64,000 nucleotides of DNA from Candidatus Doudnabacteria bacterium RIFCSPHIGHO2_12_FULL_48_16 (GTDB taxonomy: Bacteria > Patescibacteriota > Doudnabacteria > UBA920 > O2-02-FULL-48-8): positions 10,399 through 74,398 of the forward strand of contig MFEY01000004.1 of assembly GCA_001780035.1 (NCBI GenBank), given 5' to 3'. The notes beneath the pieces are model-generated. The model saw nothing but the letters and a program-made list of their open reading frames with translations, searched no databases and was not told where the DNA came from. This document shows, in pieces, positions 9,035 through 28,279 of the stretch. Each line of letters begins with the position of its first letter. Position 1 is the first letter of the stretch. The position numbers were made by a program, and so were the translations under genes.

Positions 9035-10375
9035 TTAAATTCTATTTACAAGCACTTCGGGTAGCTGGAGTATTTTGTCTCCTTGGCTAAACCCGTTTCT
9101 TATTATCGCCGTGATTACACCATTCGGCAGACTTGATTTTTTAGTAGCAGATCTCCCCACGTGATAACGGGAATCAAAGCCAGTCTTCCCTAATGCAATA
9201 GGTATCACTTTTATGCCCGCTGATCCCAATAACGCATCCATCGGGGCTTTGATATCTTTAAACTGACTTAGCCAGGCATTAGCTTGGTCCAGAGGTCTTA
9301 AGCTTTCGGGATCGCCTGTGGCACTCATATACTTATACCCCTCGTTATTAACCAATTCATTATATAACAGGTCGAAGCCACCTAGATTATCCGTGATATA
9401 TCTTGACTGATCAAAATTTTTAAGTTTTTCACGCTCCCCGCTGGTAAGAACACAAAATTTAAACAACACATCTTTCACGCTCTGAGTGATTTTCTCCTGT
9501 TGCTCAACCGAACCTCCCGCACCTATCTCGCCTTTAACGAACTTTCCAACCACGCCTAAATTTTTTGCCGCATTTGCATACCGCTCCACTGGCTGCAACA
9601 TACCCTTAAAAGTATTTCTAATACCCAGGTCTTGTGGGCGTTCTGAGGAGGCTTTATCGATTTTCGAGTTGAACACAACCAGCTTGACAAAAAAATCTGT
9701 CTGACGCTGCTTCACCTGCTCTATATCTTCTTGATTTCTTGAATAGACATCCAGTACTAAAGCCTGATCCAGAGTCAATCTTTCATCTTCAGCAATTCCA
9801 GCTCGCCATGTTTGTTCTTCCGATGTGGCAGTCTGTAGGTCGCTCTGCATTTGACTGAGGGATTGTTCAAGATCAACCACTTCCTTCTTGTAGCCGGGGA
9901 TAAAAACTTCTTCCCATTTGGTAAGTGCCGCTTGAGCCTCGGCAAGTGCTGCTTTAGCACGTTCTACACCGTCTTTTTCGGACACCAATAGAGAACCAGG
10001 TTTTACCCGAGCTTCCGCTTGTCTTAACTCATCATGCGCTTGTTGTAGAAATTCTTTACGCTTTTCTACGCTTTCTAGGAAATCTCTACTCCCTCGACGG
10101 AGTTGCGATTTGGCATATTCCAGAGGAGTGCGGGCTTCAATCATCTTACGCACAATGGCGGTACGGGCTTCAAAAAAATTGATTGATTTGGATAAATTCG
10201 CCTGTCCTTCCGGTCGTTCCAGAAGAGCTGTTATCTTGCCCTTTAGTGCTTCGGGGGCTATCGCCGCTACTCCTGAAAAGTCTTGTTCTACTGTGTTATT
10301 ACCAGCAATTTCTGGCCTACGCATTCCTGTGCTTGGATCAATATCTTCTCCGAATCTCTGTTCTTCATCATCCAT
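9035..10375 (-). CDS. Hypothetical 446-aa coiled-coil-rich protein, cargo of the tRNA-Glu island
   Basis: No recognisable domain. Codon usage is rich in AGA/AGG/GGA/ATA, unlike neighbouring genes. Confidence 0.5.
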   Translation of the reverse strand: MDDEEQRFGEDIDPSTGMRRPEIAGNNTVEQDFSGVAAIAPEALKGKITALLERPEGQANLSKSINFFEARTAIVRKMIEARTPLEYAKSQLRRGSRDFLESVEKRKEFLQQAHDELRQAEARVKPGSLLVSEKDGVERAKAALAEAQAALTKWEEVFIPGYKKEVVDLEQSLSQMQSDLQTATSEEQTWRAGIAEDERLTLDQALVLDVYSRNQEDIEQVKQRQTDFFVKLVVFNSKIDKASSERPQDLGIRNTFKGMLQPVERYANAAKNLGVVGKFVKGEIGAGGSVEQQEKITQSVKDVLFKFCVLTSGEREKLKNFDQSRYITDNLGGFDLLYNELVNNEGYKYMSATGDPESLRPLDQANAWLSQFKDIKAPMDALLGSAGIKVIPIALGKTGFDSRYHVGRSATKKSSLPNGVITAIIRNGFSQGDKILQLPEVLVNRI

Positions 10376-18034: not shown

Positions 18035-18598
18035 TTATTTTTTCTTAATTTTATCAACTGCCAAGACCGGATCGTTCTCGAGGATATTCTTAACAAACCG
18101 GTCATTCATGACCCGACGATAATCAAACTCTTGCGGGGTCAATACGGTAAAGCCAACCTCTTGCTCGGCCAGTTTCGAAGCCAGTTTCAAAAAGTTCTCG
18201 AGCCTGGATGCGCTGATTCTGCCGACGAACAATAGATCGGTTTCCACTCTCGGCTTACCTACAAATACCCCGGTTAAAGCCACCAGCTTGCAGTCCCCGA
18301 CCCGGCCAGCGGCCAGGGCCAATATATCCTTGGGCACATGTTTGGCTTTCCTTAAAAAACCAATCAGTTCCGGATAGAGGGCAAATCTCCTGTTCATCTG
18401 ATAATACCGGATCCGCTTTTTTTCAGACGTCACCAGGAAATTCATCTTGTCCAATTCCCTCAGGGTCGCGCGGAGCAATTTTTGGGGGCAGCGCGAAAGC
18501 AGCCGCAATTCGGTAAACGAAAAGGCACGCTTCGGATGCGCCAAAAGAAGATTAATCAATTGAGTTTTGGGTTTCGACGAGAGCAGTTGCGCAAGCAT
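18035..18598 (-). CDS. Winged-helix DNA-binding domain protein (hypothetical regulator)
   Basis: N-terminal wHTH-like segment. Probable ATG start at MLAQLL preceded by TGCTATAAT. Confidence 0.4.
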   Translation of the reverse strand: MLAQLLSSKPKTQLINLLLAHPKRAFSFTELRLLSRCPQKLLRATLRELDKMNFLVTSEKKRIRYYQMNRRFALYPELIGFLRKAKHVPKDILALAAGRVGDCKLVALTGVFVGKPRVETDLLFVGRISASRLENFLKLASKLAEQEVGFTVLTPQEFDYRRVMNDRFVKNILENDPVLAVDKIKKK

Positions 18599-18699
18599 GG
18601 CCTGATTATAGCACAATCAGCTTATTATTCAATAATTAGGCTTTTGGGCAAATTTGTAAAACGCATTTATATTCGCTAAAATGATAACTACGTTAATAT

Positions 18700-20610
18700 A
18701 TGGCGCGGCTAGAAACACAAATCAACCAAATATACCTAACAGACCCGGCGAACAAAAAGACTTCGCTGATTCTTTACGAAGAGCAAATCTCCCCATCCGC
18801 CCAGCTCTTCATCCTGGCCGAACTTTGGGACATCCGAAAAAAAACAGAAGAAACTGACTTAAAAAAAATTTCAGAAATTATCCTGGAATCGTTCCGGGCC
18901 AACAAGCGCCTAGCCGCCGAGGCGCTGTTTGAATCCTCGCTGGCCCAGATCAACCAAAACCTAGCCGATCTCGCCCACAGCGGCCGCAAGTCCTGGGTCG
19001 GCAAGTTCTCCGCCGTGCTTTGCCTCAAATCCGGTGATAATATTTTCGCGGCCAATGACGGCGCTTGCGCGTGTTTCTTGCATCGCAAAGGTGAACTGGT
19101 TGAAATCCTGCCCGCGGAAAAACGCGGCGACCACCCATTCAAAACATTTATCAACTTCACCCAGGGCCGCTTGGCTCCTTCCGACAACCTGATTATCAAT
19201 ACCTCCAATATTTTTGATTATGTCTCGATCGAACATTTTTCCGAGATATTGAACCGACAAACCCCGGAGCAGGCCTCTGTGGAAATCTCAAAAATTTTAC
19301 AGGATTCATTAAACGAATCCCAGGCCTTCTGCGCCTTTCTCCTCAGTTTCACCAAACCTCAAGCGGCCGGCGCCCCGGCTCAGCCCGAGACAAAGCCGGA
19401 ACCGATTTATGCTCCGTTACCCGAAGATTTGCCCCCGTCAGAGGCCAATGCCAGATTTGGCAAACTGTCTTTTTCCCGGCCCGCCTGGCTCGCAAAGCCA
19501 AAAATTCGGCTGGGCCGGATCGCCGCCTTGCAGAAACTGCAATGGTCATATTTCCAAAACCTGTCCCGCCCCGCTAAATTTTTCTTTATCAGTTTTTCAA
19601 TCTTTCTGATTCTTTTTTTGGCCAACCTGACCAACTACCTGGTCAATCGCCATTACAAAACGGTCCAGATGAGAATTGAAAACCAAATTACCCTGGTTAA
19701 TCAGGATCTGACGGAAGCTCAATCCGCAATTATTTACAAAAACAACGACGAGGCCTTAAACGCCATGAACCGGGCCCAGAAAGATTTTGAAACCTTGCTT
19801 GGCATGGACGAAGTCGCCGCCAAAAAACTCGAGCCCCGGCTGGAAAACGTCAAAACCCAGATCAACAAAATCAGCCGGATCGAAAACGCTCAGGTGATCG
19901 CAACGCTCAAACGCAATCCGGTATCACTCGGCAAAGCCCCGACCGCTTTTCTTTTGGCCGGCGAGGATTCCAATTCCCTGTCGCAGTATAGCGGCAGCGC
20001 GCTGAAAGAATATTTCCTGCTCAACAGCCTCAAAAACAATGTCACCGGAATTGCTTTCATGCCGGGCGTCGGAGTGGTTGTAAGCAGCGGCAATCTCGTA
20101 TCCAAAATCAACCAGGACATGCAGCAATTTGAAACGATTGTCAGCGTTGATCAGGGGCAATTATCGGCTATCCGGGCCGGTGCGGGCGGATTGTATGTGC
20201 TTGACCTGGCCGGCCGGCAAGTGCTTCGGTTGACGCTGAATAAAACCAAAATCCAATCAACAAAAGCTGCTTCGATCGAAAACGGCGATATCCGCGACAT
20301 TGGCGCGGATAAGGATTTATACATACTATCAGCCGACCGTTTAACAAAGATCTCCGGCGGGGCCAGCACCAATATCCCCTTGCCCAATCTCACCGACGGC
20401 ATTTCCAACGCCAATAAACTGTTTGTCGGCGCCAACCTTTACATTCTCGAAGCCAACAAAAAAAGAGTGGTCGTTATTAGCAAAACCGGATCACTCTTAA
20501 ATCAAATTTATTTCCCCAATGCCCGGGATTTGCGCGATCTGTATATTGACGAAGCGGCGAGAAGCATGTATTTGCTCGACGGCGACAAACTGGAAAAAAT
20601 CACTTTTTAG
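18700..20610 (+). CDS. Hypothetical 636-aa membrane protein
   Basis: Central TM (FFFISFSIFLILFL); no recognised domain. Confidence 0.45.
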   Translation: MARLETQINQIYLTDPANKKTSLILYEEQISPSAQLFILAELWDIRKKTEETDLKKISEIILESFRANKRLAAEALFESSLAQINQNLADLAHSGRKSWVGKFSAVLCLKSGDNIFAANDGACACFLHRKGELVEILPAEKRGDHPFKTFINFTQGRLAPSDNLIINTSNIFDYVSIEHFSEILNRQTPEQASVEISKILQDSLNESQAFCAFLLSFTKPQAAGAPAQPETKPEPIYAPLPEDLPPSEANARFGKLSFSRPAWLAKPKIRLGRIAALQKLQWSYFQNLSRPAKFFFISFSIFLILFLANLTNYLVNRHYKTVQMRIENQITLVNQDLTEAQSAIIYKNNDEALNAMNRAQKDFETLLGMDEVAAKKLEPRLENVKTQINKISRIENAQVIATLKRNPVSLGKAPTAFLLAGEDSNSLSQYSGSALKEYFLLNSLKNNVTGIAFMPGVGVVVSSGNLVSKINQDMQQFETIVSVDQGQLSAIRAGAGGLYVLDLAGRQVLRLTLNKTKIQSTKAASIENGDIRDIGADKDLYILSADRLTKISGGASTNIPLPNLTDGISNANKLFVGANLYILEANKKRVVVISKTGSLLNQIYFPNARDLRDLYIDEAARSMYLLDGDKLEKITF

Positions 20611-23530
20611 GTTCCGTAAGCTGCCCAATATTAAACGGGAAGTTGACTAGGTCCGGGTTAATCACCCGCAAGAGCAGATACGAACCGAATAATAAAACCA
20701 TTCCGATGACCGCACCCCAAATATATTCCTTGCCCTTGGTCGCTTGTTCGGCGTTGCCCGCTGAGGTCATGACATAATAGCCACCCAAAATGGTCATCAG
20801 CACGGCCAATAACGATGCAATCCCCAACGACCAGACATAAATTTGATTAATTAATTTCTGTAGAGTCTTGGAATCCACAGAGCTGCTCGCTGCCTGAGAC
20901 TGCGGCGGCGGCGCCAGGGCCAGGAACGGCGCATTAACACTCTGAAAACTGGTCCCGACCACGCTCGTGTAATTTCTGCTAGCCAGAGTTAAGGCTCCGT
21001 TCGGCGTTATCGCGCTAGTGATATTAAAGCTGCCCAAGGCCGCAGCTAATGCGGCTTTGATCGCAAAGAGTTTATTGAGCCAGTTAATGCCTGTGGTATC
21101 GGAAACGGAAATTGCCAATTCGGAATTGTAAACAAAACCGGTATCGGCTATCTCCGTTATCCAAGCATTGCCGTCCCAATCCCCGCTGGCCACAAAGAAT
21201 GAGCCTGTCCATGGGTTGTAATCCACGGTATTGCTGGCAAATCCCTCGGAAACGGGATTGATCCCCAGCGTAATCACCGGATACTCGTCTGAAGCCCTCC
21301 CGTCATCATAGACGGTTCGCCCCCAGGTCCCGGCCACGGCCTCGTCCCGGTCCCGTTCCATCCAGATGATCATGGCTGCGCCGCTCTTTGGCGAATACGC
21401 GATGTGAGCGCCGGAAAATCTATTGCGGCCGGGATAAGTTTTGGTCAATTGTACCGGTTCCCCGACCCTCTGCAGCGTCTGGGCGTTGATCCGGACCAGC
21501 ATAATCCGATCATCCTCATTTGCCGTATCGTTGCCCGACACGACAGCGGCAAAAGCAACCCAATATTCGTTGAGTTTGCTGTTGAAAGCAATGCCGGCTT
21601 GGCCCTGATACGGGTAGGAGTCAATGACCATGATCTGATCCGAGACAGTCCCTTGCTCACTCACTGTCTTTAAACCCAAGAACGCTCCGGATGGCTCGTA
21701 AAGCACCAGAAATTTTTTGCTGGCTGAATCATACGCCAGGCCGTTCAAAAAAGCGGCCCCTTGATTGATCGCAAAATCTGAACCCTGAACGGTGCCATCG
21801 GCTGAGACAAACCGGCCATATTGGCTGCGGCAGCGGTTGCCGCAGGGCCGGGTATCTTCCCAGACGACCAAAAACTTTTCGAAATCCGGACTATAAGCCA
21901 CTTTGGGCGTACCAGCCCCACCCGAGCTGTCAATCCGGAAAGCCGAGCCTTTGGGCGCCATGGTCTTGGGATCCGCCAGAAAACCGACAATCTGGCGATC
22001 GGCATCAGCCACAAATTTGCCGGCTGCAATCAGCACAGAATCAGTCTTCGCGCCGTAGGCCGCGCCGATTCCTCCCTGGCCATCGGCAGGAAAAACCACC
22101 GGCTTTGAGGGATCTGTCCCCGGCTCATGTCCCCGAGTTTGCGGCTTGTTCAGATCATTGGCGTTGCACATCAAAAGCATTGTGGGATCTTCGGGTAATG
22201 GGTCGCAAACGATGCCGTTCGGGATTTGTTCTTCCGTAACGGTGACGGACAAAGGTTTGCCGTTGGAAGTCAGGCCCGCAGAAAAAATCCGAACCGTGTA
22301 ATTGTCAGCCGGCAAGTCTGCCGGAATGACAATGGTCGTCCGCGTGCCATTGGCGCTAACCTGCCCGCCATAGGAATCAATCCGACCATCGCTGGCATAA
22401 AATTCCACGGTTGCCGACAAATTGCTACCCCTGATGACCAGAGATTGGCCAGCCGTGGCCCGCGACAAATTCAGCGAATCAATGTGGGGAGCTCTGGGAA
22501 TCGGCGATTCCGAACAATCAGCACCGCAAAGATCAACCCGCGGAGCGGCATCGGAGACAGTCGTTACGATCAGCTGGCCGCGGGCATCGCTGGCAGCGAT
22601 GACAAACTTGTCCCCGGCGTGAACCACGCTAAAGGAGGCGGCGTGGGCATTAACAACGATAACGCTGCGCTCACCCCACGGCCGAAGCATCATAAACTCA
22701 TCGGTGTCATTCCAAGCCTCGGTCGCCAGCCAAATCCGGCCGTTGACGCTCAGGAGCTGCGGAATACTTTCATTCATTCCCCGAACCGCAGACAGATCAA
22801 CGTCTTTGCCGGAAGGATCGATTCCATGCACCGGCCCGTATCCGCCGTAAGCAATATAGCCGTTCAAAACATCAGCGCCAAAATATGGTGTCTGAGGCGT
22901 ATAAACCTTATTAAGTCCGCTGCCTCTGTAAACACAAATCGCATCGTTGTCGTTGCTGCAGGCGTGAACCAACAAATCCCCGCCAAGGGCCATGGCCCCG
23001 CCGGGTCGGGTTTGATCTAAAATTCTATTGTCTTTCACAATTTGGGTCACCGCCTTATAAGAAGCCCAGTGCCCATCCTTGGCCACAAAGTTATTGCCCA
23101 AAACCAGTTGCGGGTTATCCGCCGTTTTTTTGGGAACCCACTCGCCGACCTTGACTTCATAACGGTAAAATCCCGGCTGGCCATCCTCAATTTCGCAAAC
23201 AAAGGTCAGGGTGTCCGGTTGAATCCACTGGCCGGCAATACAGCGGTGCGCTCGATTGGCAATGTCAGCCGGATCGCGGAAGTCCCAATTCTGGCCGGTC
23301 TGTAAATCGGTAACCCAACTCTCGCCCCAGTTGCCATAGGTGATAAAGCGCCCGTTGGGCGAAAGGTCCGGCCACCAGCCGTTGATGGTCTGAGGCGGCG
23401 ACCAGCTGCTCAGGTTCGGAGCCCGCTCGGGGCTGGCGGCCAGCAGCGGCGAATCCGTTTGAGGCAAACCCAAAGCCAGGACCAAAATGGCGGCCAAACC
23501 CAGATTGATAAATTTTTTAGCGGTAATCAT
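20600..23530 (-). CDS. Large secreted surface protein (976 aa) with C-terminal double-TM anchor; beta-propeller/Ig-like content suspected
   Basis: Signal peptide MITAKKFINLGLAAILVLALG; C-terminus GGYYVMTSAGNAE...IWGAVIGMVLLFGSYLLL. Last gene of the tight operon. Confidence 0.6.
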   Translation of the reverse strand: MITAKKFINLGLAAILVLALGLPQTDSPLLAASPERAPNLSSWSPPQTINGWWPDLSPNGRFITYGNWGESWVTDLQTGQNWDFRDPADIANRAHRCIAGQWIQPDTLTFVCEIEDGQPGFYRYEVKVGEWVPKKTADNPQLVLGNNFVAKDGHWASYKAVTQIVKDNRILDQTRPGGAMALGGDLLVHACSNDNDAICVYRGSGLNKVYTPQTPYFGADVLNGYIAYGGYGPVHGIDPSGKDVDLSAVRGMNESIPQLLSVNGRIWLATEAWNDTDEFMMLRPWGERSVIVVNAHAASFSVVHAGDKFVIAASDARGQLIVTTVSDAAPRVDLCGADCSESPIPRAPHIDSLNLSRATAGQSLVIRGSNLSATVEFYASDGRIDSYGGQVSANGTRTTIVIPADLPADNYTVRIFSAGLTSNGKPLSVTVTEEQIPNGIVCDPLPEDPTMLLMCNANDLNKPQTRGHEPGTDPSKPVVFPADGQGGIGAAYGAKTDSVLIAAGKFVADADRQIVGFLADPKTMAPKGSAFRIDSSGGAGTPKVAYSPDFEKFLVVWEDTRPCGNRCRSQYGRFVSADGTVQGSDFAINQGAAFLNGLAYDSASKKFLVLYEPSGAFLGLKTVSEQGTVSDQIMVIDSYPYQGQAGIAFNSKLNEYWVAFAAVVSGNDTANEDDRIMLVRINAQTLQRVGEPVQLTKTYPGRNRFSGAHIAYSPKSGAAMIIWMERDRDEAVAGTWGRTVYDDGRASDEYPVITLGINPVSEGFASNTVDYNPWTGSFFVASGDWDGNAWITEIADTGFVYNSELAISVSDTTGINWLNKLFAIKAALAAALGSFNITSAITPNGALTLASRNYTSVVGTSFQSVNAPFLALAPPPQSQAASSSVDSKTLQKLINQIYVWSLGIASLLAVLMTILGGYYVMTSAGNAEQATKGKEYIWGAVIGMVLLFGSYLLLRVINPDLVNFPFNIGQLTEPKK

Positions 23531-24092
23531 ATTTGCATGGTCCCAGATACTTATTCACTTCGCTGTTATAAATGGCAATGCAATAGAGCTGTCCGGTCAG
23601 GTTGTCGCGCATCGTGACCCACGGCAAATCGCCATTGACCGGTTCAACCAGGGCGCCGGCCACAGCGCCGGAGTTGGCGGCGACCGGGACGATGTTATAA
23701 ATCGGCGGTTCGCTCATAAATTCGATACCCGATGGAATTGCGGCCAAGATCTGACCAGAGTCGGCAAGGTGGCTCAACGAAAAAGCCAGTTCGTGATAAA
23801 AATTGCGCCCGATGACGGCCAGGTCGCGGTCGCCCACTCCGTGTTCGAGCAGCGCCAAGCTGGCATTGCCCGCCTGCCCATAAAATTCATTAATGGAGTC
23901 AAAAACCAAGATCAAATTATCAAAATAAGGCCCGTCCCCCATGGTCTGCTGCCAGGCCACGGACAATCGGCCGGTCATTTCGTCCTGCAGGGCAGCCAGT
24001 TCGGTTCGGTTGGTTGGTTGCAGCACGAAAAGGGCCGTCAGTAAGATAAATCCGGCCAGACCGTAGAATAATTTTTCGGCTGCTTGCGTCAT
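23517..24092 (-). CDS. Small N-terminally anchored membrane protein, paralog 3 of 3
   Basis: N-terminal TM; shares the NEFYGQAG-type motif with the two upstream genes. Confidence 0.5.
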   Translation of the reverse strand: MTQAAEKLFYGLAGFILLTALFVLQPTNRTELAALQDEMTGRLSVAWQQTMGDGPYFDNLILVFDSINEFYGQAGNASLALLEHGVGDRDLAVIGRNFYHELAFSLSHLADSGQILAAIPSGIEFMSEPPIYNIVPVAANSGAVAGALVEPVNGDLPWVTMRDNLTGQLYCIAIYNSEVNKYLGPCKYDYR

Positions 24093-24115
24093 CAGACTCA
24101 GTTTTGATTTAAATT

Positions 24116-24571
24116 TTAATATTCCATTTCTATGCTAATCCCCGCCACGCTCCCTTGCCCGATGGTTGCCGACAAATCCAACAGTGAGGCCATTTGGATA
24201 CTCGACTGGCTGTAAAATTCTGTCACGCCGGACACGACCTGGGCCAGATCGTTGTCCGATCCGCTCAGATCAAATAACGGCATGGCCGCGTCGGTCGCCT
24301 GCTTGTAGAAATCGTTCACTCCCTCGACCACGCCGATCATCGGCGCGAACACGGTCGAAAGTTGAACTTGGGTCTGTTTTAAATTTTCGGTGAAGTCGAA
24401 AATCGTCAGCGCCTCCTGCCAGTCAGCTTTCGTCGTTAAGCCAAACAGGGCTCCTTCCAAAACCAAGAGGCCGGTCATAGCCAACGCCAGATAATAAACC
24501 TGGTAATGTTTGGATTTGAAAATTTTTCGGATTGTATTGGACTTTGCTTTTGCTTTTGTTTTAGTTTTCAT
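24116..24571 (-). CDS. Small N-terminally anchored membrane protein, paralog 2 of 3
   Basis: Basic N-terminus plus TM; NDFYKQAT motif. Confidence 0.5.
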   Translation of the reverse strand: MKTKTKAKAKSNTIRKIFKSKHYQVYYLALAMTGLLVLEGALFGLTTKADWQEALTIFDFTENLKQTQVQLSTVFAPMIGVVEGVNDFYKQATDAAMPLFDLSGSDNDLAQVVSGVTEFYSQSSIQMASLLDLSATIGQGSVAGISIEMEY

Positions 24572-24572
24572 T

Positions 24573-25097
24573 TTAGTGATTGATATTGATTAAAAATTTC
24601 TCCGCTTGCCGCCAATCGACCTTGGGCGGCTGGTAAAATAAATGTTCTGGCTCTGGCGCAACCGGCGCCGCTCTTTCAATTGCGACTCCGGCAACCTGCC
24701 CACCGCTCGATACCGGGGCGGGTTGATTGGCCAAATAATAATCGAACGTCACCTGATCGGAGTAATAAAGAAAGTCCGAATACAGAAATGCTGTCTGCCG
24801 GCTTAAGTTTTCAAAATATTCAATGTGACCGGCCGGCATAACTGCGACCTCGCCAAATGCCTTATAGAATTCCTGAAAAAATTGGTGCGGCATCGCCCAT
24901 ACCACTTGAAAATCCCCGGCGGAATGCGCCACCTGTTGATGCAGATCAAACATGTTTAAAGCGGAAACGAAATTGTCTTGCTGCTTCGGGTTTAAATTCA
25001 TAAACAGAATTGCTCCGATCAGCAGAATGCCCAGCGCAATGAAAATCACCAGACCGGCCTCAAACCAATTTAAATTTTTATAATCGGTTGAGTGCAT
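24573..25097 (-). CDS. Small N-terminally anchored membrane protein, paralog 1 of 3
   Basis: N-terminal TM; QEFYKAFG motif. Confidence 0.5.
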   Translation of the reverse strand: MHSTDYKNLNWFEAGLVIFIALGILLIGAILFMNLNPKQQDNFVSALNMFDLHQQVAHSAGDFQVVWAMPHQFFQEFYKAFGEVAVMPAGHIEYFENLSRQTAFLYSDFLYYSDQVTFDYYLANQPAPVSSGGQVAGVAIERAAPVAPEPEHLFYQPPKVDWRQAEKFLININH

Positions 25098-25099
25098 GC

Positions 25100-25333
25100 T
25101 TATGGTAAAAAATTTAAATACCGCCCCAACTGAGTCAGGCGCGATTGCGACTCTAAGTGCTGTTTTTTCAGATACTCAAACAAGTCTTCGCGGGTGACCA
25201 GCCAGTCGCGGCCAATCTTGCGGGCTTTAAGCTTGCCTTTGCGCGCCAAGAGATTTAGATAATCAGCGCTATATGGAGAGTATTCGGCCGCGGCTTTTAA
25301 AGACAAGAGTTCTTTTGTGTCTGTTTTATTCAT
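25100..25333 (-). CDS. Excisionase-family (HTH_17-like) DNA-binding protein
   Basis: LLSLKAAAEYSPYSADYLNLLARKGKLKARKIGRDWLVTREDL matches the HTH_17 pattern. Start at MNKTD. Confidence 0.6.
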   Translation of the reverse strand: MNKTDTKELLSLKAAAEYSPYSADYLNLLARKGKLKARKIGRDWLVTREDLFEYLKKQHLESQSRLTQLGRYLNFLP

Positions 25334-25334
25334 T

Positions 25335-25483
25335 TTATTTTGGCAAATTCCCACGCCACCGAAATTTAAGTATTGTATAAAGACGGCGGGGTCCGCCAGA
25401 GGCGGGAAAATAATCCGCGCTGTATGGAGACAGCTCGGCCGCTTCTTTCAAACTTAAAAGATCCACCCCAACCCTTTGATTCA
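25335..25483 (-). pseudogene. Decayed tandem copy of the HTH gene 5' end
   Basis: Reads MNQRVGVDLLSLKEAAELSPYSADYFPAS...; LLSLKEAAELSPYSADY matches LLSLKAAAEYSPYSADY, then the sequence diverges. Confidence 0.5.
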
Positions 25484-25589
25484 TTTTTGTTTTTGTTTCC
25501 GCTGTTTTTGGGCTAAACCCAGAATTTTACCTGCCCGCCTATTTTGGGCTTGGTGACAGGGTCGGCTAACCCATACTATATCTGTAATA

Positions 25590-25598
25590 ATTATAGCA
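25590..25598 (-). promoter_or_regulatory. Extended -10 TGCTATAAT on the minus strand
   Basis: One of at least six copies of this motif in the window. Confidence 0.45.
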
Positions 25599-25599
25599 T

Positions 25600-25630
25600 A
25601 AAAACAGCCTCTTGTCCAGAGGCTGTTTTT
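25600..25630. terminator. Bidirectional terminator AAAAACAGCCTCTtgtccAGAGGCTGTTTTT downstream of rplL
   Basis: Perfect hairpin with A/T runs. Confidence 0.7.
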
Positions 25631-25706
25631 AAATTGATCTAATTAGTCTAATCGATCTGATTTCTAAACGACAACTTAGGTCAATTAAAAATTAGTAATT
25701 AGAAAT

Positions 25707-26078
25707 TTACTTCAGCGTTACCTTGGCGCCAGCTTCTTCCAGCTTCTTCTTTAATTCTTCCGCTTCGGCCTTGGCAATGTTTTCTTTGATTGCTTTAGGC
25801 GCTGCGTCGACCAAGTCCTTGGCTTCTTTCAGGCCCTTGCCGGTCGCTTCGCGCACAACCTTGATGACGTTGATCTTGTTGGCGCCGCTATCGGTAAGCT
25901 CAACTGTAAATTCGGTCTTCTCTTCTCCGACGCTCGGCGCAGCCGAGGTCGGAGCTCCGACTGCAAACGTCGGAGCGGCACTAACGCCGAACTTTTCTTC
26001 CAGGGTTTTCACCAATTCGGAAAGTTCCAGCGCGGTCAGCTTTTCAATCTCAGAAACGATGTTATCAAAATTTGCCAT
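25707..26078 (-). CDS. rplL: Ribosomal protein L7/L12
   Basis: [32 protein letters not shown]. Confidence 0.9.
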
Positions 26079-26125
26079 ATTATTTAAATTAATCAATTAA
26101 TTCTTTAATTGCTAAGAATCGACCT

Positions 26126-26647
26126 TTAGCCTTTCTTATCCTTAATTGCGTTAAGCACGTTCAACAGATTTCTGGTATTGCCGGAAAGCACGGTGACCAA
26201 TCCCCTGGCAGGTCCCTGCAGGACCGACAGCAGCTGAGCGATCAATTGCGGTTTGGTTGGCAGCGTTGCTAAACGCATCACGACATCAGAGCCGATCATT
26301 TCATTGTTAAAAATTCCGCCGCCTAAAATCAGCAGTGGCTGATCTTTGGTCATGCCCTTCAAAATTCGGGCCGGGGCGGTTTCTTCCTCGTTCGATACGG
26401 CCATGGCCACCGGACCATTGTATTTGAACTTGTCGGCGTTGATGCCGATTGCCGCCAGGGCTTTCTTAAGCAGAGTGACTTTCACAACCTGATACTTCAC
26501 ATTTTCTTTGCGCAAATTCTTGCGAACCTGATCCAACTGTTTGACGGAAAGGCCGCGGTATTCGGTAAACACCACGCCCTTGGCGCCCTTAAGATCTTCG
26601 GTCAGCGAAGCGAGTGCGGCTTCCTTTTCTTTTCTTGTTACTGCCAT
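26126..26647 (-). CDS. rplJ: Ribosomal protein L10
   Basis: L10 family sequence, upstream of rplL. Confidence 0.9.
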   Translation of the reverse strand: MAVTRKEKEAALASLTEDLKGAKGVVFTEYRGLSVKQLDQVRKNLRKENVKYQVVKVTLLKKALAAIGINADKFKYNGPVAMAVSNEEETAPARILKGMTKDQPLLILGGGIFNNEMIGSDVVMRLATLPTKPQLIAQLLSVLQGPARGLVTVLSGNTRNLLNVLNAIKDKKG

Positions 26648-26925
26648 ATAGATTTAGGATTAAGGATTTAAGATTAAAGTGTAGAACCTAAATCCTACAA
26701 CCTTAATCCGTATTAATAAAAAACCCGCTATCCAAAGACGGGGTTCATGTCATCCTGAACTTGTTTCAGGATCTCTTCCTACCCGGCGGATTAAGGCCTA
26801 GCGGCCAGCAGGGGTCTTTGGCTATTGAATTCCTCAATATTTTATACTGTTTTCCGGCATCCGTCAAGAGATAAAAAACCGAGCCGAGATGTCTCCTAAA
26901 GAGAGGGACATCTCGGCGCATACAT
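26648..26925 (-). promoter_or_regulatory. rplJ leader. Contains an upstream terminator hairpin (26893-26925), a candidate promoter (-35 TTGACG, -10 TAAAAT) and a leader attenuator hairpin CCCGTCtttggataGCGGG plus U-run
   Basis: Read on the minus strand. Confidence 0.45.
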
Positions 26926-27172
26926 CGGCTGAATCTGACGCTTAGGGGGCTGGCGAGTCCCCAAAACGAGCCCTTTCCAGCGTAGCCCGCGGAACGGTCA
27001 AGATCCAGTCGCGGTTGCACGTGCCATCGCCGCCTTTATACACTTCGTGCCCACCCTTAGCGGAGTAGATACGGACGGTGGCGTCGTTCTCGCCCTTCCA
27101 GGCCTTGATCCTGACGACGGTCTTGGCCGGCAATGTGCACGACTGGCCAACTGTGACCCATATCTTATATGA

Positions 27173-27198
27173 AAAACCCGCGCTGTTCAAACGCGGGT
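27173..27198. terminator. Hairpin AACCCGCGctgttcaaaCGCGGGTT downstream of mltG
   Basis: Perfect 8-bp stem with T-run. Confidence 0.55.
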
Positions 27199-27229
27199 TT
27201 TCTATTTACTACTTGCTGGTTACTATTTA

Positions 27230-28279
27230 CTATTTTAAATATTTCACCTTGTTGGCGTTATGCTCAGCCAAAGTTTTGGCAAAATAAGCCGTGCCCTCCG
27301 GCGCATTGAGAAAATAGAAATAATCCGACTCGGCCGGAAAAATCGCGGCCCGGATCGAACCAATCCCGGGGTTAGAAATGGGCGTCGGTGGCAAGCCTTT
27401 GACCTGATAAGTATTGTAAGGCGACTTAATTTTAGTGTCTGCAATGGTCACTGAACGGTCGGCTTTGCCCGTAATGTAATTAACTGTGGCATCGGATTCC
27501 AGGCCCATACCGATGCGGAGGCGGTTATAAAACACCGAGGCCACGAGTTCGCGTTCCTTCTGCATGAGGACCAGATCATTCTGGCTAATCACTTCCTTGT
27601 TGCGGCCGACTTCCTTCTCAATGATGGAAGCGACAATTAACTGATCCCCAGAGAGCGCTTGATTGCCCAACTTAACTTCGAAATTCCTAAGCATCTTCTC
27701 AATCAAATCCTGGGGCAAATCAGTTTTACCTATCTTATAAGTGTCCGGATACAAAAAACCTTGGTAATTGAACTTGAGCCCAAGTTGAGAAAACTTGGTA
27801 TTAAAATCGTCGCGGGTCAACGCATGCTGAAAATCCACTTCCGCAAAGACATTTTTCTGCGCCAGGTTGCGGGCAATTTGGTCATTGGTCCAGCCTTCAA
27901 TAATCGTCACGCTCCGATCCGACGGAATGACGCGGCCGTGCGTGATTACGTCCACGATTTCGGCAATGCTCATATTGCGATCCAGCTGATACTGACCGGC
28001 CTGAATTTTGGCCGCCGCATGATTGATGTAAGTGTAAGCCCAAAAGATCACTGGGCTGCCGATTAATTTTTGCGCGGTTAAGTCCCTACCGATCCTCTGG
28101 GCGGTCGCGCCCGGTTTGATCTCAAACGCCACCGGATAACTGTCCGAGCTTTGGGCATGATGGACCTTGGTTAAATAAATGGCGACCAAGACCAAAACAG
28201 CCGCCAAGCCCAAGCCGGCGGCCAGGCTGGCGATTTTGATTCGGCTTTTATTTGGCTTTTGGACGGAATAATCTTCCAT
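27230..28279 (-). CDS. mltG: Endolytic murein transglycosylase (YceG family)
   Basis: N-terminal TM, YceG-like core with YNTYQVKGLPPTPISNPG. Confidence 0.8.
   Translation of the reverse strand: MEDYSVQKPNKSRIKIASLAAGLGLAAVLVLVAIYLTKVHHAQSSDSYPVAFEIKPGATAQRIGRDLTAQKLIGSPVIFWAYTYINHAAAKIQAGQYQLDRNMSIAEIVDVITHGRVIPSDRSVTIIEGWTNDQIARNLAQKNVFAEVDFQHALTRDDFNTKFSQLGLKFNYQGFLYPDTYKIGKTDLPQDLIEKMLRNFEVKLGNQALSGDQLIVASIIEKEVGRNKEVISQNDLVLMQKERELVASVFYNRLRIGMGLESDATVNYITGKADRSVTIADTKIKSPYNTYQVKGLPPTPISNPGIGSIRAAIFPAESDYFYFLNAPEGTAYFAKTLAEHNANKVKYLK

What the first reader, a model, noticed from the sequence alone, without database searches (positions are those of the whole stretch)
20600..25600. Tight operon: excisionase-like HTH, three paralogous small membrane-anchored proteins, 976-aa surface protein with C-terminal double-TM anchor
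Five minus-strand genes are packed with 0-3 nt gaps or small overlaps and sit behind an extended -10 promoter (25590). The three small proteins (174, 151, 191 aa) each have one N-terminal TM helix. They share a short conserved core: QEFYKAFGEVAV, NDFYKQATDAAMPLFDL and NEFYGQAGNASLALLEH. That pattern suggests tandem duplication of one ancestral gene. The last gene encodes a signal-peptide protein of nearly 1000 aa. Its sequence hints at beta-propeller and Ig/IPT-like content. It ends in two hydrophobic helices (GGYYVMTSAGNAE...IWGAVIGMVLLFGSYLLL) reminiscent of pilin-like or VirB2-like anchors. The layout (small helix-anchored proteins then a giant adhesin-like protein) resembles minor-pilin plus PilY1-type tip modules. 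No canonical prepilin G/FxxxE motif is present, so it would be a distinct, undescribed surface assembly. The HTH_17 gene has a decayed tandem copy of its own 5' end directly upstream, which suggests recent recombination or mobility.
Basis: partly seen in the sequence, partly recalled or inferred. Interest (0 to 1): 0.8.

Follow-up and report, generated by a model that had tools for sequence, protein, structure and literature searches.

The report
Pilin-anchored surface protein with paralogous membrane trio
In an ultrasmall groundwater bacterium (Candidatus Doudnabacteria), three related small membrane proteins of unknown function sit beside a large surface protein that is held in the membrane by a conjugation-pilin-type hairpin and displays sugar-binding-type propeller domains, probably for attaching to a host cell.

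Summary
The window comes from a Candidatus Doudnabacteria (CPR/Patescibacteria) genome.

- **Large protein.** The 976-aa protein has a signal peptide, a beta-propeller, an IPT/TIG-like domain, a second propeller with six repeat motifs, and a linker. It ends in a hairpin that matches Pfam PF18895 (T4SS_pilin, VirB2-like). One related genome carries a bare 135-aa pilin in the same slot, 64% identical to this hairpin. The large protein is therefore a VirB2-like pilin that gained an ectodomain of about 860 aa.
- **Small proteins.** Profile comparison supports paralogy of the three small one-TM proteins: Sa~Sb 95.6%, Sb~Sc 96.3%. Every named homologue but one is from Doudnabacteria. They have no relative of known sequence, and the one modelled (Sc) has no relative of known structure.
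- **Synteny.** The order rplJ-rplL, [HTH], small proteins, [variable slot], then a convergent 636-aa gene and the mraZ cell-division cluster is conserved. This argues against a mobile element. A pilin-domain gene fills the slot in only 10 of 19 loci.
- **Rejected reading.** The type IV minor-pilin/PilY1 interpretation is not supported.

Best reading: a lineage-specific envelope module next to a variable, pilin-anchored, glycan-binding surface protein.

The parts
25599..25631 (-). Intrinsic terminator hairpin of rplL. Its loop carries the -35 hexamer of the next promoter.
   Evidence: 14-bp stem, dG -20.7 kcal/mol, z -5.68, followed by a T run.
25590..25618 (-). Sigma-70-like promoter with an extended -10 (TGGACA-17-TGcTATAAT).
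   Evidence: 11 of 12 matches with TG. This is a consensus match only; the site count in the region does not exceed shuffles.
25335..25484 (-). 49-aa upstream ORF. Its first ~26 codons are a diverged duplicate of the HTH gene's 5' end, and its stop lies 1 nt before ATG 25333.
   Evidence: Sequence read; alignment; blastn 79% over 43 nt, found only in this species.
25100..25354 (-). Small excisionase/MerR-type DNA-binding protein (HTH_17). The likely start is ATG 25333 (77 aa).
   Evidence: PF12728 2e-9; TIGR01764 3e-6, just below its cut-off; PHROG excisionase families ~4e-6. Found in L005, L006, L007, L010, L017, L019, L022 and L033; no HTH gene found in L009, L011, L012 or L013.
24573..25097 (-). 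Sa: bitopic membrane protein, paralogue 1 (TM aa 15-33, FY motif, GQVAGVAIE motif).
   Evidence: Orthologues occur in 10 further loci; absent in L033.
24116..24571 (-). Sb: bitopic membrane protein, paralogue 2. It has a Lys-rich cytoplasmic N-terminus, a TM helix at aa 25-46, two FYxxAxxxxxxLLDLS repeats and a C-terminal GSVAGISIE.
   Evidence: 102 hits among 1.84 billion representatives, almost all orthologues of about 100-170 aa. It links Sa and Sc in profile comparisons.
23517..24092 (-). Sc: bitopic membrane protein, paralogue 3. The model shows a TM helix at aa 2-24, three helices at aa 30-111, a disordered linker with GAVAG, and a small 3-stranded C-terminal domain with two invariant Cys.
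20600..23530 (-). BIG: 976-aa secreted surface protein. Its start overlaps the end of Sc by 14 nt.
   Evidence: The 14-nt overlap (17 nt in L011) recurs in L005, L006, L007, L009 and L019.
22526..23413 (-). BIG aa 40-335: beta-propeller 1, a module reused in many CPR proteins.
   Evidence: pLDDT mostly 80-94. 43-58% identical (45-55% for most) to modules in proteins that also carry GH5, subtilase or SLT domains.
22241..22489 (-). BIG aa 348-430: IPT/TIG-like domain.
   Evidence: PF01833 E 0.0037, below the gathering score. Strands are present but the model confidence is low. UniRef names the protein 'IPT/TIG domain-containing'.
21110..22078 (-). BIG aa 485-807: beta-propeller 2, with six repeats of an (I/V)AY(S/N)xxxxx(F/Y)LVxW-type motif.
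   Evidence: Model; five regex matches, plus GLAYDSASKKFLVLYE read in the sequence. Homologous domains occur in the slot proteins of L008, L019 and L026.
20660..20872 (-). BIG aa 887-957: T4SS_pilin (VirB2-like) helical hairpin with two TM helices and a short AGNAEQATKGKE loop.
   Evidence: PF18895 1.4e-9, 38.4 bits vs 26.6; NF045849 pilin-like conjugal transfer protein 2e-6, below its cut-off; helices 887-921 and 927-957; 64% identical to the bare 135-aa pilin of L020.
18700..20610 (+). Conserved convergent neighbour of 636 aa with one central TM helix. It overlaps the BIG 3' end by 11 nt. Whether it belongs to the module is uncertain.
   Evidence: Present in every canonical locus whose sequence extends far enough downstream. 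TM at aa 292-310. UniRef name 'PPM-type phosphatase domain-containing'. No Pfam hit.

Best explanation
The region holds two linked but separable units in a Candidatus Doudnabacteria chromosome.

**Unit 1: the small proteins.** Sa, Sb and Sc are lineage-specific paralogues (Sb and Sc form the core). Each is anchored by one N-terminal helix with its helical domain outside the cell. They most likely form a hetero-oligomeric complex on the outer face of the membrane. In some lineages they are preceded by a small excisionase-type HTH regulator.

**Unit 2: the variable slot directly downstream.** Its core occupant is a VirB2-like type IV secretion pilin.
- In this genome the pilin carries an ectodomain of about 860 aa between its signal peptide and its hairpin. 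The ectodomain comprises propeller 1, an IPT/TIG-like domain and a six-repeat propeller 2.
- I infer that the protein is exported by Sec. The hairpin then inserts with both ends outside, as in VirB2.
- The propellers would be displayed on the surface as a glycan-binding, or possibly glycan-cleaving, adhesin for contact with a host cell or its envelope.
- Reassortment of ectodomains between lineages (propellers, GH5, SLT, or none) would change the target specificity.

**Status of each step.**
- Shown: gene structure, domain content, paralogy, synteny and slot variability.
- Inferred: topology, complex formation, glycan binding, and any functional coupling of the trio to the pilin protein.
For: **Domain content.**
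- PF18895 is matched above threshold, and the model shows a helical hairpin.
- A bare 135-aa pilin sits in the same slot in L020, 64% identical to the BIG hairpin.
- Syntenic slot proteins range from 135 to 1596 aa. They carry GH5 (L010), SLT after the hairpin (P0002 in L006), or propeller-2 homologues (L008, L019, L026).
- Subtilase domains lie C-terminal to the hairpin in P0017 and P0020. This fits a both-ends-out topology.

**Paralogy and narrow distribution of the trio.**

**Link between the trio and the pilin gene.**
- The 14-nt overlap of Sc and the slot gene is conserved in five further loci.
- The trio is again followed by a pilin-fusion protein in the relocated locus L008.

**Chromosomal, not mobile.**
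- The position is fixed between rplJL and mraZ.
- No relatives of Sc or BIG occur in viral contigs.

**Literature.**
- Patescibacterial T4SS loci carry essential VirB2-like pilin arrays (PMC12102498, PMC12857230, PMC10633639).
- Several essential envelope proteins of a cultured Saccharibacterium have polysaccharide-binding or -degrading domains (PMC10633639).
Against: - Nine of 19 loci with readable downstream sequence have no pilin-domain gene after Sc (L012, L013, L014/L022, L017, L021, L024, L025, L026, L033), so the trio does not need a neighbouring pilin.
- Large pilin-fusion proteins in other CPR lineages have no trio nearby.
- No T4SS ATPase or channel gene lies in the 64-kb window.
- Propeller similarity to sialidases and lectins is at fold level only (5-9% identity). 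No catalytic or sugar-binding residues were checked.
- The BIG model has mean pLDDT 66 and was built from 14 sequences.
- There is no expression or localisation data.
Confidence: 0.5

Rival explanations
1. BIG is a true pilus subunit. The hairpin polymerises with small VirB2-like pilins through a T4SS encoded elsewhere in the genome. This would place the propellers along or at the tip of a conjugative-type pilus as the adhesin. The trio would act as pilus-assembly or minor components.
For: - The hairpin is a full PF18895 match and is 64% identical to a normal-sized pilin in the same slot.
- Patescibacterial T4SSs have multi-pilin arrays that are essential for epibiotic growth (PMC12102498, PMC10633639).
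- The Sc/BIG overlap is conserved.
Against: - No virB4, virB6 or virB3 lies within 64 kb.
- An 860-aa load on every subunit is hard to fit into a VirB2 helical filament. This is an inference from known F and T pilus structures.
- Some relatives carry further enzyme domains after the hairpin.
- The pilin gene is absent from about half of the trio loci.
Confidence: 0.2
2. The small proteins have nothing to do with the pilin protein. They would be a Doudnabacteria-specific envelope or division-associated complex that belongs with the conserved 636-aa, 193-aa and 78-aa genes and the mraZ cluster. The slot would simply be a permissive insertion site for variable surface genes.
For: - Sb and Sc, the 636-aa gene and the 193-aa gene are present in all canonical loci whether or not the slot is filled.
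- The slot sometimes holds non-pilin genes: a GH32/43-like protein in L012 and an anchor-less TIG/propeller protein in L026.
Against: - In L008 the trio has moved away from rplJL/mraZ yet is still followed by a pilin-fusion protein.
- The conserved 14-nt overlap suggests coupled translation.
- No homology to any known division protein was found.
Confidence: 0.25
3. This is the first reader's model: a type IV pilus-like module in which the three small proteins act as minor pilins and the large protein as a PilY1-type tip adhesin.
For: The layout is superficially similar: small helix-anchored proteins followed by a large propeller protein.
Against: - There is no G(-1)/E(+5) class III signal peptide.
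- The Sc ectodomain is modelled as a helical bundle, not a pilin alpha-beta roll.
- There is no PilY1/PilC Pfam hit, and the anchor is a T4SS pilin hairpin.
- No PilB, PilC or PilD genes lie in the neighbourhood.
Confidence: 0.03
4. The cluster is a remnant of a mobile element or prophage. The cues would be the excisionase-like gene, its partial duplication, and cargo genes.
For: - The HTH protein matches excisionase families.
- A partial tandem duplicate of its 5' end is present.
- GC content in 22-24 kb is somewhat higher (0.554) than in the flanks.
Against: - The chromosomal position is the same in the canonical loci of divergent Doudnabacteria.
- No integrase was annotated in the flanks.
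- There are no viral relatives.
- No tRNA gene lies next to the cluster.
Confidence: 0.02

Closest known systems
VirB2/TrbC-type T4SS pilins of Patescibacteria (Pfam PF18895 T4SS_pilin; pilin arrays of Southlakia epibionticum and Nanosynbacter lyticus)
   Same: The C-terminal 70 aa form the same two-helix hydrophobic hairpin with a short polar loop. The organism is in the same phylum. A normal-sized member occupies the same slot in a related genome.
   Different: - An ectodomain of about 860 aa is inserted between the signal peptide and the hairpin.
- The gene is not next to virB4, virB6 or virB3.
- It is a single gene rather than an array.
- Polymerisation is unproven.
Mbov_0395 / ICE_MMCAP2_0565 pilin-like conjugal transfer proteins of Mycoplasma ICEs (NCBIfam NF045849)
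   Same: The hairpin shows weak sequence similarity to this family (27.2 bits).
   Different: The score is below the family cut-off of 40 bits. The cluster is not on an ICE, and the protein is far larger.
Six-bladed beta-propeller sialidases and fucose lectins (e.g. 1w0o, 8uvv, 5mxc)
   Different: Sequence identity is 5-9%. No Asp-box or catalytic residues were established. The resemblance is at fold level only.
Type IV pilus minor pilins plus PilY1
   Same: Both have an operon of small helix-anchored proteins followed by a large propeller-containing protein.
   Different: There is no prepilin signal, no pilin fold and no PilY1 domain. The anchor family is different.
Excisionase / MerR-type HTH_17 proteins
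   Same: The 77-84 aa protein matches PF12728 along the full domain.
   Different: It has no partner integrase. It sits at a fixed chromosomal position and is present only in some lineages, so it is probably a small regulator.

Membership tests
T4SS_pilin (PF18895, VirB2-like) | Sequence match to the family profile above the curated threshold | tested here: met
   38.4 bits vs 26.6, aa 887-950. The syntenic proteins of L009, L010, L011, L019 and L020 also pass.
T4SS_pilin (PF18895, VirB2-like) | Two hydrophobic helices joined by a short polar loop | tested here: met
   Helices 887-921 and 927-957. Hydropathy peaks at 897-915 and 939-957.
T4SS_pilin (PF18895, VirB2-like) | Small protein (about 70-140 aa) consisting of a signal peptide plus the hairpin | tested here: not met
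   BIG is 976 aa with about 860 aa before the hairpin. The L020 orthologous slot gene does meet this feature at 135 aa.
T4SS_pilin (PF18895, VirB2-like) | Encoded beside T4SS genes (virB4, virB3/prgI, virB6) | tested here: not met
   Every ORF of 580 aa or more in the window is accounted for: PBP, ABC transporter, histidine kinase, DnaE, ThrRS, plus the 636-aa gene, which has no Pfam hit, and BIG itself. None gave a VirB4 match. The rest of the genome was not examined.
T4SS_pilin (PF18895, VirB2-like) | Polymerises into an extracellular pilus | not testable with these tools
   This needs microscopy or biochemistry.
Type IV pilus minor pilins / PilY1 | Class III signal peptide (Gly at -1, Glu at +5) before the hydrophobic helix | tested here: not met
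   The N-termini of Sa, Sb and Sc and their orthologues lack it.
Type IV pilus minor pilins / PilY1 | PilY1/PilC C-terminal propeller domain in the large protein | tested here: not met
   Pfam finds no such hit at E<=0.1. The propellers resemble sialidase/lectin and generic WD-type folds.
Type IV pilus minor pilins / PilY1 | Neighbouring PilB/PilC/PilD machinery | tested here: not met
   None appears among the precomputed Pfam annotations of the 23-kb neighbourhood.
Excisionase (TIGR01764) / HTH_17 | HTH_17 domain match | tested here: met
   PF12728 38 bits vs 27. TIGR01764 scores 27.5 vs 28.8, just below its cut-off.
Excisionase (TIGR01764) / HTH_17 | Partner integrase and location in a mobile element | tested here: not met
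   No integrase in the neighbourhood. The position is fixed across genomes.
Sialidase / six-bladed propeller glycosidases | Catalytic Arg triad, nucleophile Tyr/Glu and Asp-box motifs | not tested
   Only fold similarity was obtained. There is no Pfam BNR or sialidase hit.

The most novel reading that the evidence does not exclude
Sa, Sb and Sc may be a dedicated, T4SS-independent machinery that inserts, oligomerises or extrudes VirB2-like hairpin proteins. On this reading Doudnabacteria would build a previously unknown surface structure from a conjugation-type pilin that carries interchangeable glycan-binding or glycan-cleaving heads. The C-terminal GxVAG strands of Sa and Sb might complete the small beta-domain of Sc.
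Probability: 0.12. Interest if true: 0.8.

Novelty: new variant of a known kind. Interest (0 to 1): 0.45.

Why it matters
CPR/Patescibacteria make up a large share of bacterial diversity and appear to live attached to other cells. How they recognise and hold on to a host is largely unknown.

VirB2-like pilins were recently shown to be widespread in the phylum and essential in a cultured member. In the papers I could search they are described only as small pilins in arrays near virB4.

This locus shows, within one orthologous slot, a series that runs from a bare pilin to pilins carrying propellers, a GH5 domain or a lytic transglycosylase. That suggests the pilin hairpin is a general way for these bacteria to display swappable surface modules.

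The neighbouring paralogous trio is a compact candidate partner with a narrow distribution. It could be tested by multimer modelling or in enrichment cultures. If the trio proves unrelated, the finding reduces to an ordinary variable surface protein next to lineage-specific membrane proteins of unknown function.

Tried and rejected
- **Small proteins against family libraries.** Pfam, NCBIfam, PADLOC and PHROGs scans gave nothing credible.
- **PDB by sequence.** Searches with BIG, the 636-aa protein and profiles of Sc and Sb found no relatives.
- **Deep search with an Sb profile.** The exhaustive HMMER search of 1.84 billion representatives returned almost only orthologues. The three longer multi-stretch hits are unrelated helical-repeat proteins.
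- **Unavailable library.** The afdb50 fold library was not on the machine.
- **Small locus samples.** The genome-contig scan returned only 3 loci. The metagenome scan returned 16, many of them short.
- **Viral contigs.** No relative of Sc or BIG was found.
- **Rfam.** Nothing in 20000-27400 reached a gathering score. The 'Phe_leader' match is the rplL terminator.
- **Ribosome-binding sites.** No Shine-Dalgarno sequence precedes any gene here, including rplJ and rplL, so RBS spacing gives no information.
- **Type IV prepilin or Flp-type motif in Sa.** A conserved YxNLxxFE precedes the TM helix. I rejected it because it has no Gly at -1 and no Glu at +5 in the hydrophobic part.
- **GxVAG as a sorting signal.** I considered it as a sortase- or exosortase-type signal. 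No TM helix or basic tail follows it, so there is no support.
- **Literature.** Searches for pilin-fusion proteins in CPR found only the general T4SS papers.
Full report
**Origin and gene structure**

An exact look-up of the 976-aa protein places the window in Candidatus Doudnabacteria metagenome-assembled genomes from aquifer samples, for example GCA_001777705.1 contig MFEU01000011.1.

The five minus-strand ORFs are present as described:

| Gene | Coordinates | Length |
|---|---|---|
| HTH | 25354..25100 | 84 aa from GTG; 77 aa from ATG 25333 |
| Sa | 25097..24573 | 174 aa |
| Sb | 24571..24116 | 151 aa |
| Sc | 24092..23517 | 191 aa |
| BIG | 23530..20600 | 976 aa |

- NCBI and the orthologues use the ATG start for the HTH gene.
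- The spacings are 2 nt, 1 nt and 23 nt, then a 14-nt overlap.
- Upstream lie rplJ (26647..26126) and rplL (26096..25707).
- rplL ends in a strong hairpin terminator (dG -20.7 kcal/mol, z -5.7).
- The terminator loop contains the -35 hexamer of a near-consensus extended -10 promoter at 25618..25590. That promoter is a pattern match only.
- No Shine-Dalgarno sequence precedes any gene here, not even rplJ or rplL.
- A 636-aa gene (18700..20610, + strand) converges on BIG and overlaps its end by 11 nt.

**The partial HTH duplicate**

- Between the promoter and the HTH gene lies a 49-aa ORF (25484..25335).
- Its first ~26 codons (MNQRVGVDLLSLKEAAELSPYSADYF) mirror the HTH N-terminus.
- blastn gives 79% identity over 43 nt. 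The copy is absent upstream of the HTH genes of L005, L006, L007 and L010.
- Its stop codon lies 1 nt before ATG 25333.
I did not establish whether it is translated.

**The three small proteins**

*Architecture.*
- Each has one N-terminal hydrophobic helix.
- Sb has a Lys-rich N-terminus, which suggests an N-in, C-out orientation (inference).
- Sb contains two copies of an FYxxAxxxxxxLLDLS helix motif.
- Sc has an invariant Cys pair in a small C-terminal domain. This fits an extracytoplasmic location (inference).
- All three share a GxVAG motif. It lies at the very C-terminus of Sb, about 30 residues from the end of Sa, and before the beta-domain of Sc.

*Paralogy.*

| Comparison | Result |
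|---|---|
| Pairwise BLASTP, Sb vs Sc | E 1e-6 (only significant pair) |
| hhalign, Sb (98 sequences) vs Sc (about 60 sequences) | 96.3%, E 1.5e-9, 87 columns |
| hhalign, Sa (11 sequences) vs Sb | 95.6%, E 1.3e-8, 72 columns |
| hhalign, Sa vs Sc | GxVAG motif only, not significant |
| TM removed, Sb vs Sc | 95.5% |
| TM removed, Sa vs Sb | 69.6% |

- The three HMMs hit only each other among the 462 ORFs of the window. This rules out generic TM similarity.
- Paralogy is therefore well supported for Sb/Sc and probable for Sa.

*Distribution.*
- The families are narrow. Sc has 64 homologues, and every one that a source names is from Doudnabacteria, apart from one MAG labelled Methylomirabilota.
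- Sb has 102 hits among 1.84 billion representatives. Almost all are orthologues of about 100-170 aa.

*Structure.*
- The Sc model has pLDDT 80. It shows a TM helix, three further helices (aa 30-111), a disordered linker and a small three-stranded sheet.
- PDB profile searches are empty.

**The large protein**

*Domains.*
- Pfam matches the C-terminal 64 aa to T4SS_pilin PF18895 (38.4 vs 26.6 bits).
- Pfam gives a sub-threshold IPT/TIG match at aa 348-426.
- NCBIfam gives a sub-threshold match to Mycoplasma ICE pilin-like proteins.
- The AlphaFold model has mean pLDDT 66 from 14 sequences. It shows:
  - a signal helix;
  - a confident beta domain at aa 40-335;
  - a low-confidence segment at aa 340-484 that contains the TIG-like strands;
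  - a second beta domain at aa 485-807;
  - a disordered Ala/Ser-rich linker;
  - a two-helix hairpin at aa 887-957.

*Fold matches.*
- Foldseek matches tandem-propeller proteins such as tricorn, Utp21 and LRP6.
- Propeller 2 carries six copies of an AY(S/N)xxxxx(F/Y)LVxW-type motif (plus the sequence).

*Module reuse.*
- Propeller 1 recurs at 43-58% identity (45-55% for most) in CPR proteins of quite different architecture.
- Those proteins also carry GH5 cellulase, subtilase or SLT domains.
- In some of them the enzyme domain follows the hairpin. This fits the both-ends-out topology of VirB2.

**Synteny**

The order below recurs in the canonical Doudnabacteria loci examined; L010 has a local rearrangement and L008 is relocated:

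rplJ-rplL, [HTH], Sa-Sb-Sc, [slot], convergent 636-aa gene, 193-aa gene, 78-aa gene, mraZ-rsmH-ftsL-PBP

- The HTH gene is absent in L009, L011, L012 and L013.
- Sa is absent in L033.
- L010 has the order Sa, 278-aa gene, Sc, Sb.

The slot after Sc is variable:

| Slot content | Loci |
|---|---|
| Pilin-domain genes of 554-1596 aa | L005, L006, L007, L009, L010, L011, L019 |
| Bare 135-aa pilin, 64% identical to BIG aa 871-966 | L020 |
| Pilin-fusion protein in a relocated locus, where a bAvd-like gene interrupts the trio | L008 |
| Anchor-less TIG/propeller protein | L026 |
| Unrelated genes, including a GH32/43-like protein | L012 |
| Nothing | L013, L014/L022, L017, L021, L024, L025, L033 |

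- Counting this window (L001), 10 of 19 loci have a pilin-domain gene directly after the small proteins.
- The 14-nt overlap with Sc is conserved where the gene follows directly.
- Large pilin-fusion genes in other CPR lineages (L015, L016) have no trio nearby.
- Neither Sc nor BIG has relatives in viral contigs.

**Interpretation**

- The anchor is a member, by sequence and predicted shape, of the VirB2-like pilin family. That family is widespread in Patescibacteria, and its members form essential arrays beside the T4SS (PMC12102498, PMC12857230, PMC10633639).
- BIG departs from the family in size and in location. No T4SS gene lies in the 64-kb window.
- The series from bare pilin to decorated pilin within one orthologous slot shows that ectodomains were added to a pilin. 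The hairpin is therefore not an unrelated anchor.
- I cannot tell whether it still polymerises.
- I favour surface display of a glycan-binding or glycan-cleaving head anchored by the hairpin.
- The trio would be a lineage-specific membrane complex whose link to the pilin protein is suggestive but unproven.
  - For a link: the conserved overlap, and co-relocation in L008.
  - Against a link: the trio persists without a neighbouring pilin in about half of the loci.
- The type IV pilus (minor pilin/PilY1) model fails each defining feature that I could test.
- The mobile-element reading is contradicted by the fixed chromosomal position.

**Verdict**

- The large protein is a new variant of a known kind. 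The trio is an uncharacterised lineage-specific family.
- Interest is moderate. The papers I could search do not describe pilin hairpins carrying large interchangeable heads, and the locus offers a clean evolutionary series. Function remains inferred, and such fusion proteins appear common in CPR databases.

Noticed in passing
window 18035-18616 (-): The conserved 193-aa protein downstream of the cluster matches PADLOC candidate defence family PDC-M05A (E 8.4e-17). It sits next to a 78-aa membrane protein and mraZ in every canonical Doudnabacteria locus that extends that far. It has no Pfam hit.
   Followed up: partly
window 18700-20610 (+): This 636-aa protein has one central TM helix. UniRef calls it 'PPM-type phosphatase domain-containing', but it has no Pfam or NCBIfam hit. 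It converges on BIG with an 11-nt overlap and is conserved in all canonical loci that extend far enough downstream. It could be a transmembrane sensor linked to the module.
   Followed up: partly
window 25335-25484 (-): This 49-aa upstream ORF starts with a copy of the HTH N-terminus and ends 1 nt before the HTH start codon. It might be a leader or coupling ORF, or just debris. It is specific to this species.
   Followed up: partly
window 25590-25631 (-): The -35 hexamer of the cluster's promoter-like site lies in the loop of the rplL terminator hairpin, so termination and re-initiation signals overlap.
   Followed up: partly
L008:1-8000: In one relocated copy of the module, a bAvd-like gene (PF22296/PF05635) interrupts the trio. 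Upstream lie another 23S_rRNA_IVP-family gene and a giant protein (5126 aa by the gene call). Avd-like proteins usually accompany diversity-generating retroelements, but no reverse transcriptase was seen in the 12.6 kb held.
   Followed up: no
window 22526-23413 (-) and proteins P0006-P0023: Propeller 1 of BIG is a mobile module found at 43-58% identity (45-55% for most) in many CPR proteins. Those proteins combine it with GH5 cellulase, subtilase, SLT or pilin hairpins. It has no Pfam family.
   Followed up: partly
window 9035-10375 (-): In this 446-aa protein only the C-terminal third (aa 299-444) matches GrpE. This is an unusually long N-terminal extension for a GrpE.
   Followed up: no
L015:3941-8151: A Yanofskybacteria contig carries two tandem large T4SS_pilin fusion proteins (677 and 716 aa) next to an SLT_2 lytic transglycosylase. 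They are followed by a 147-aa one-TM helical protein with no detectable similarity to Sa, Sb or Sc.
   Followed up: partly
window 20000-27400: No Shine-Dalgarno-like sequence precedes any start codon checked, including rplJ and rplL. This organism may rely little on SD-led initiation.
   Followed up: no
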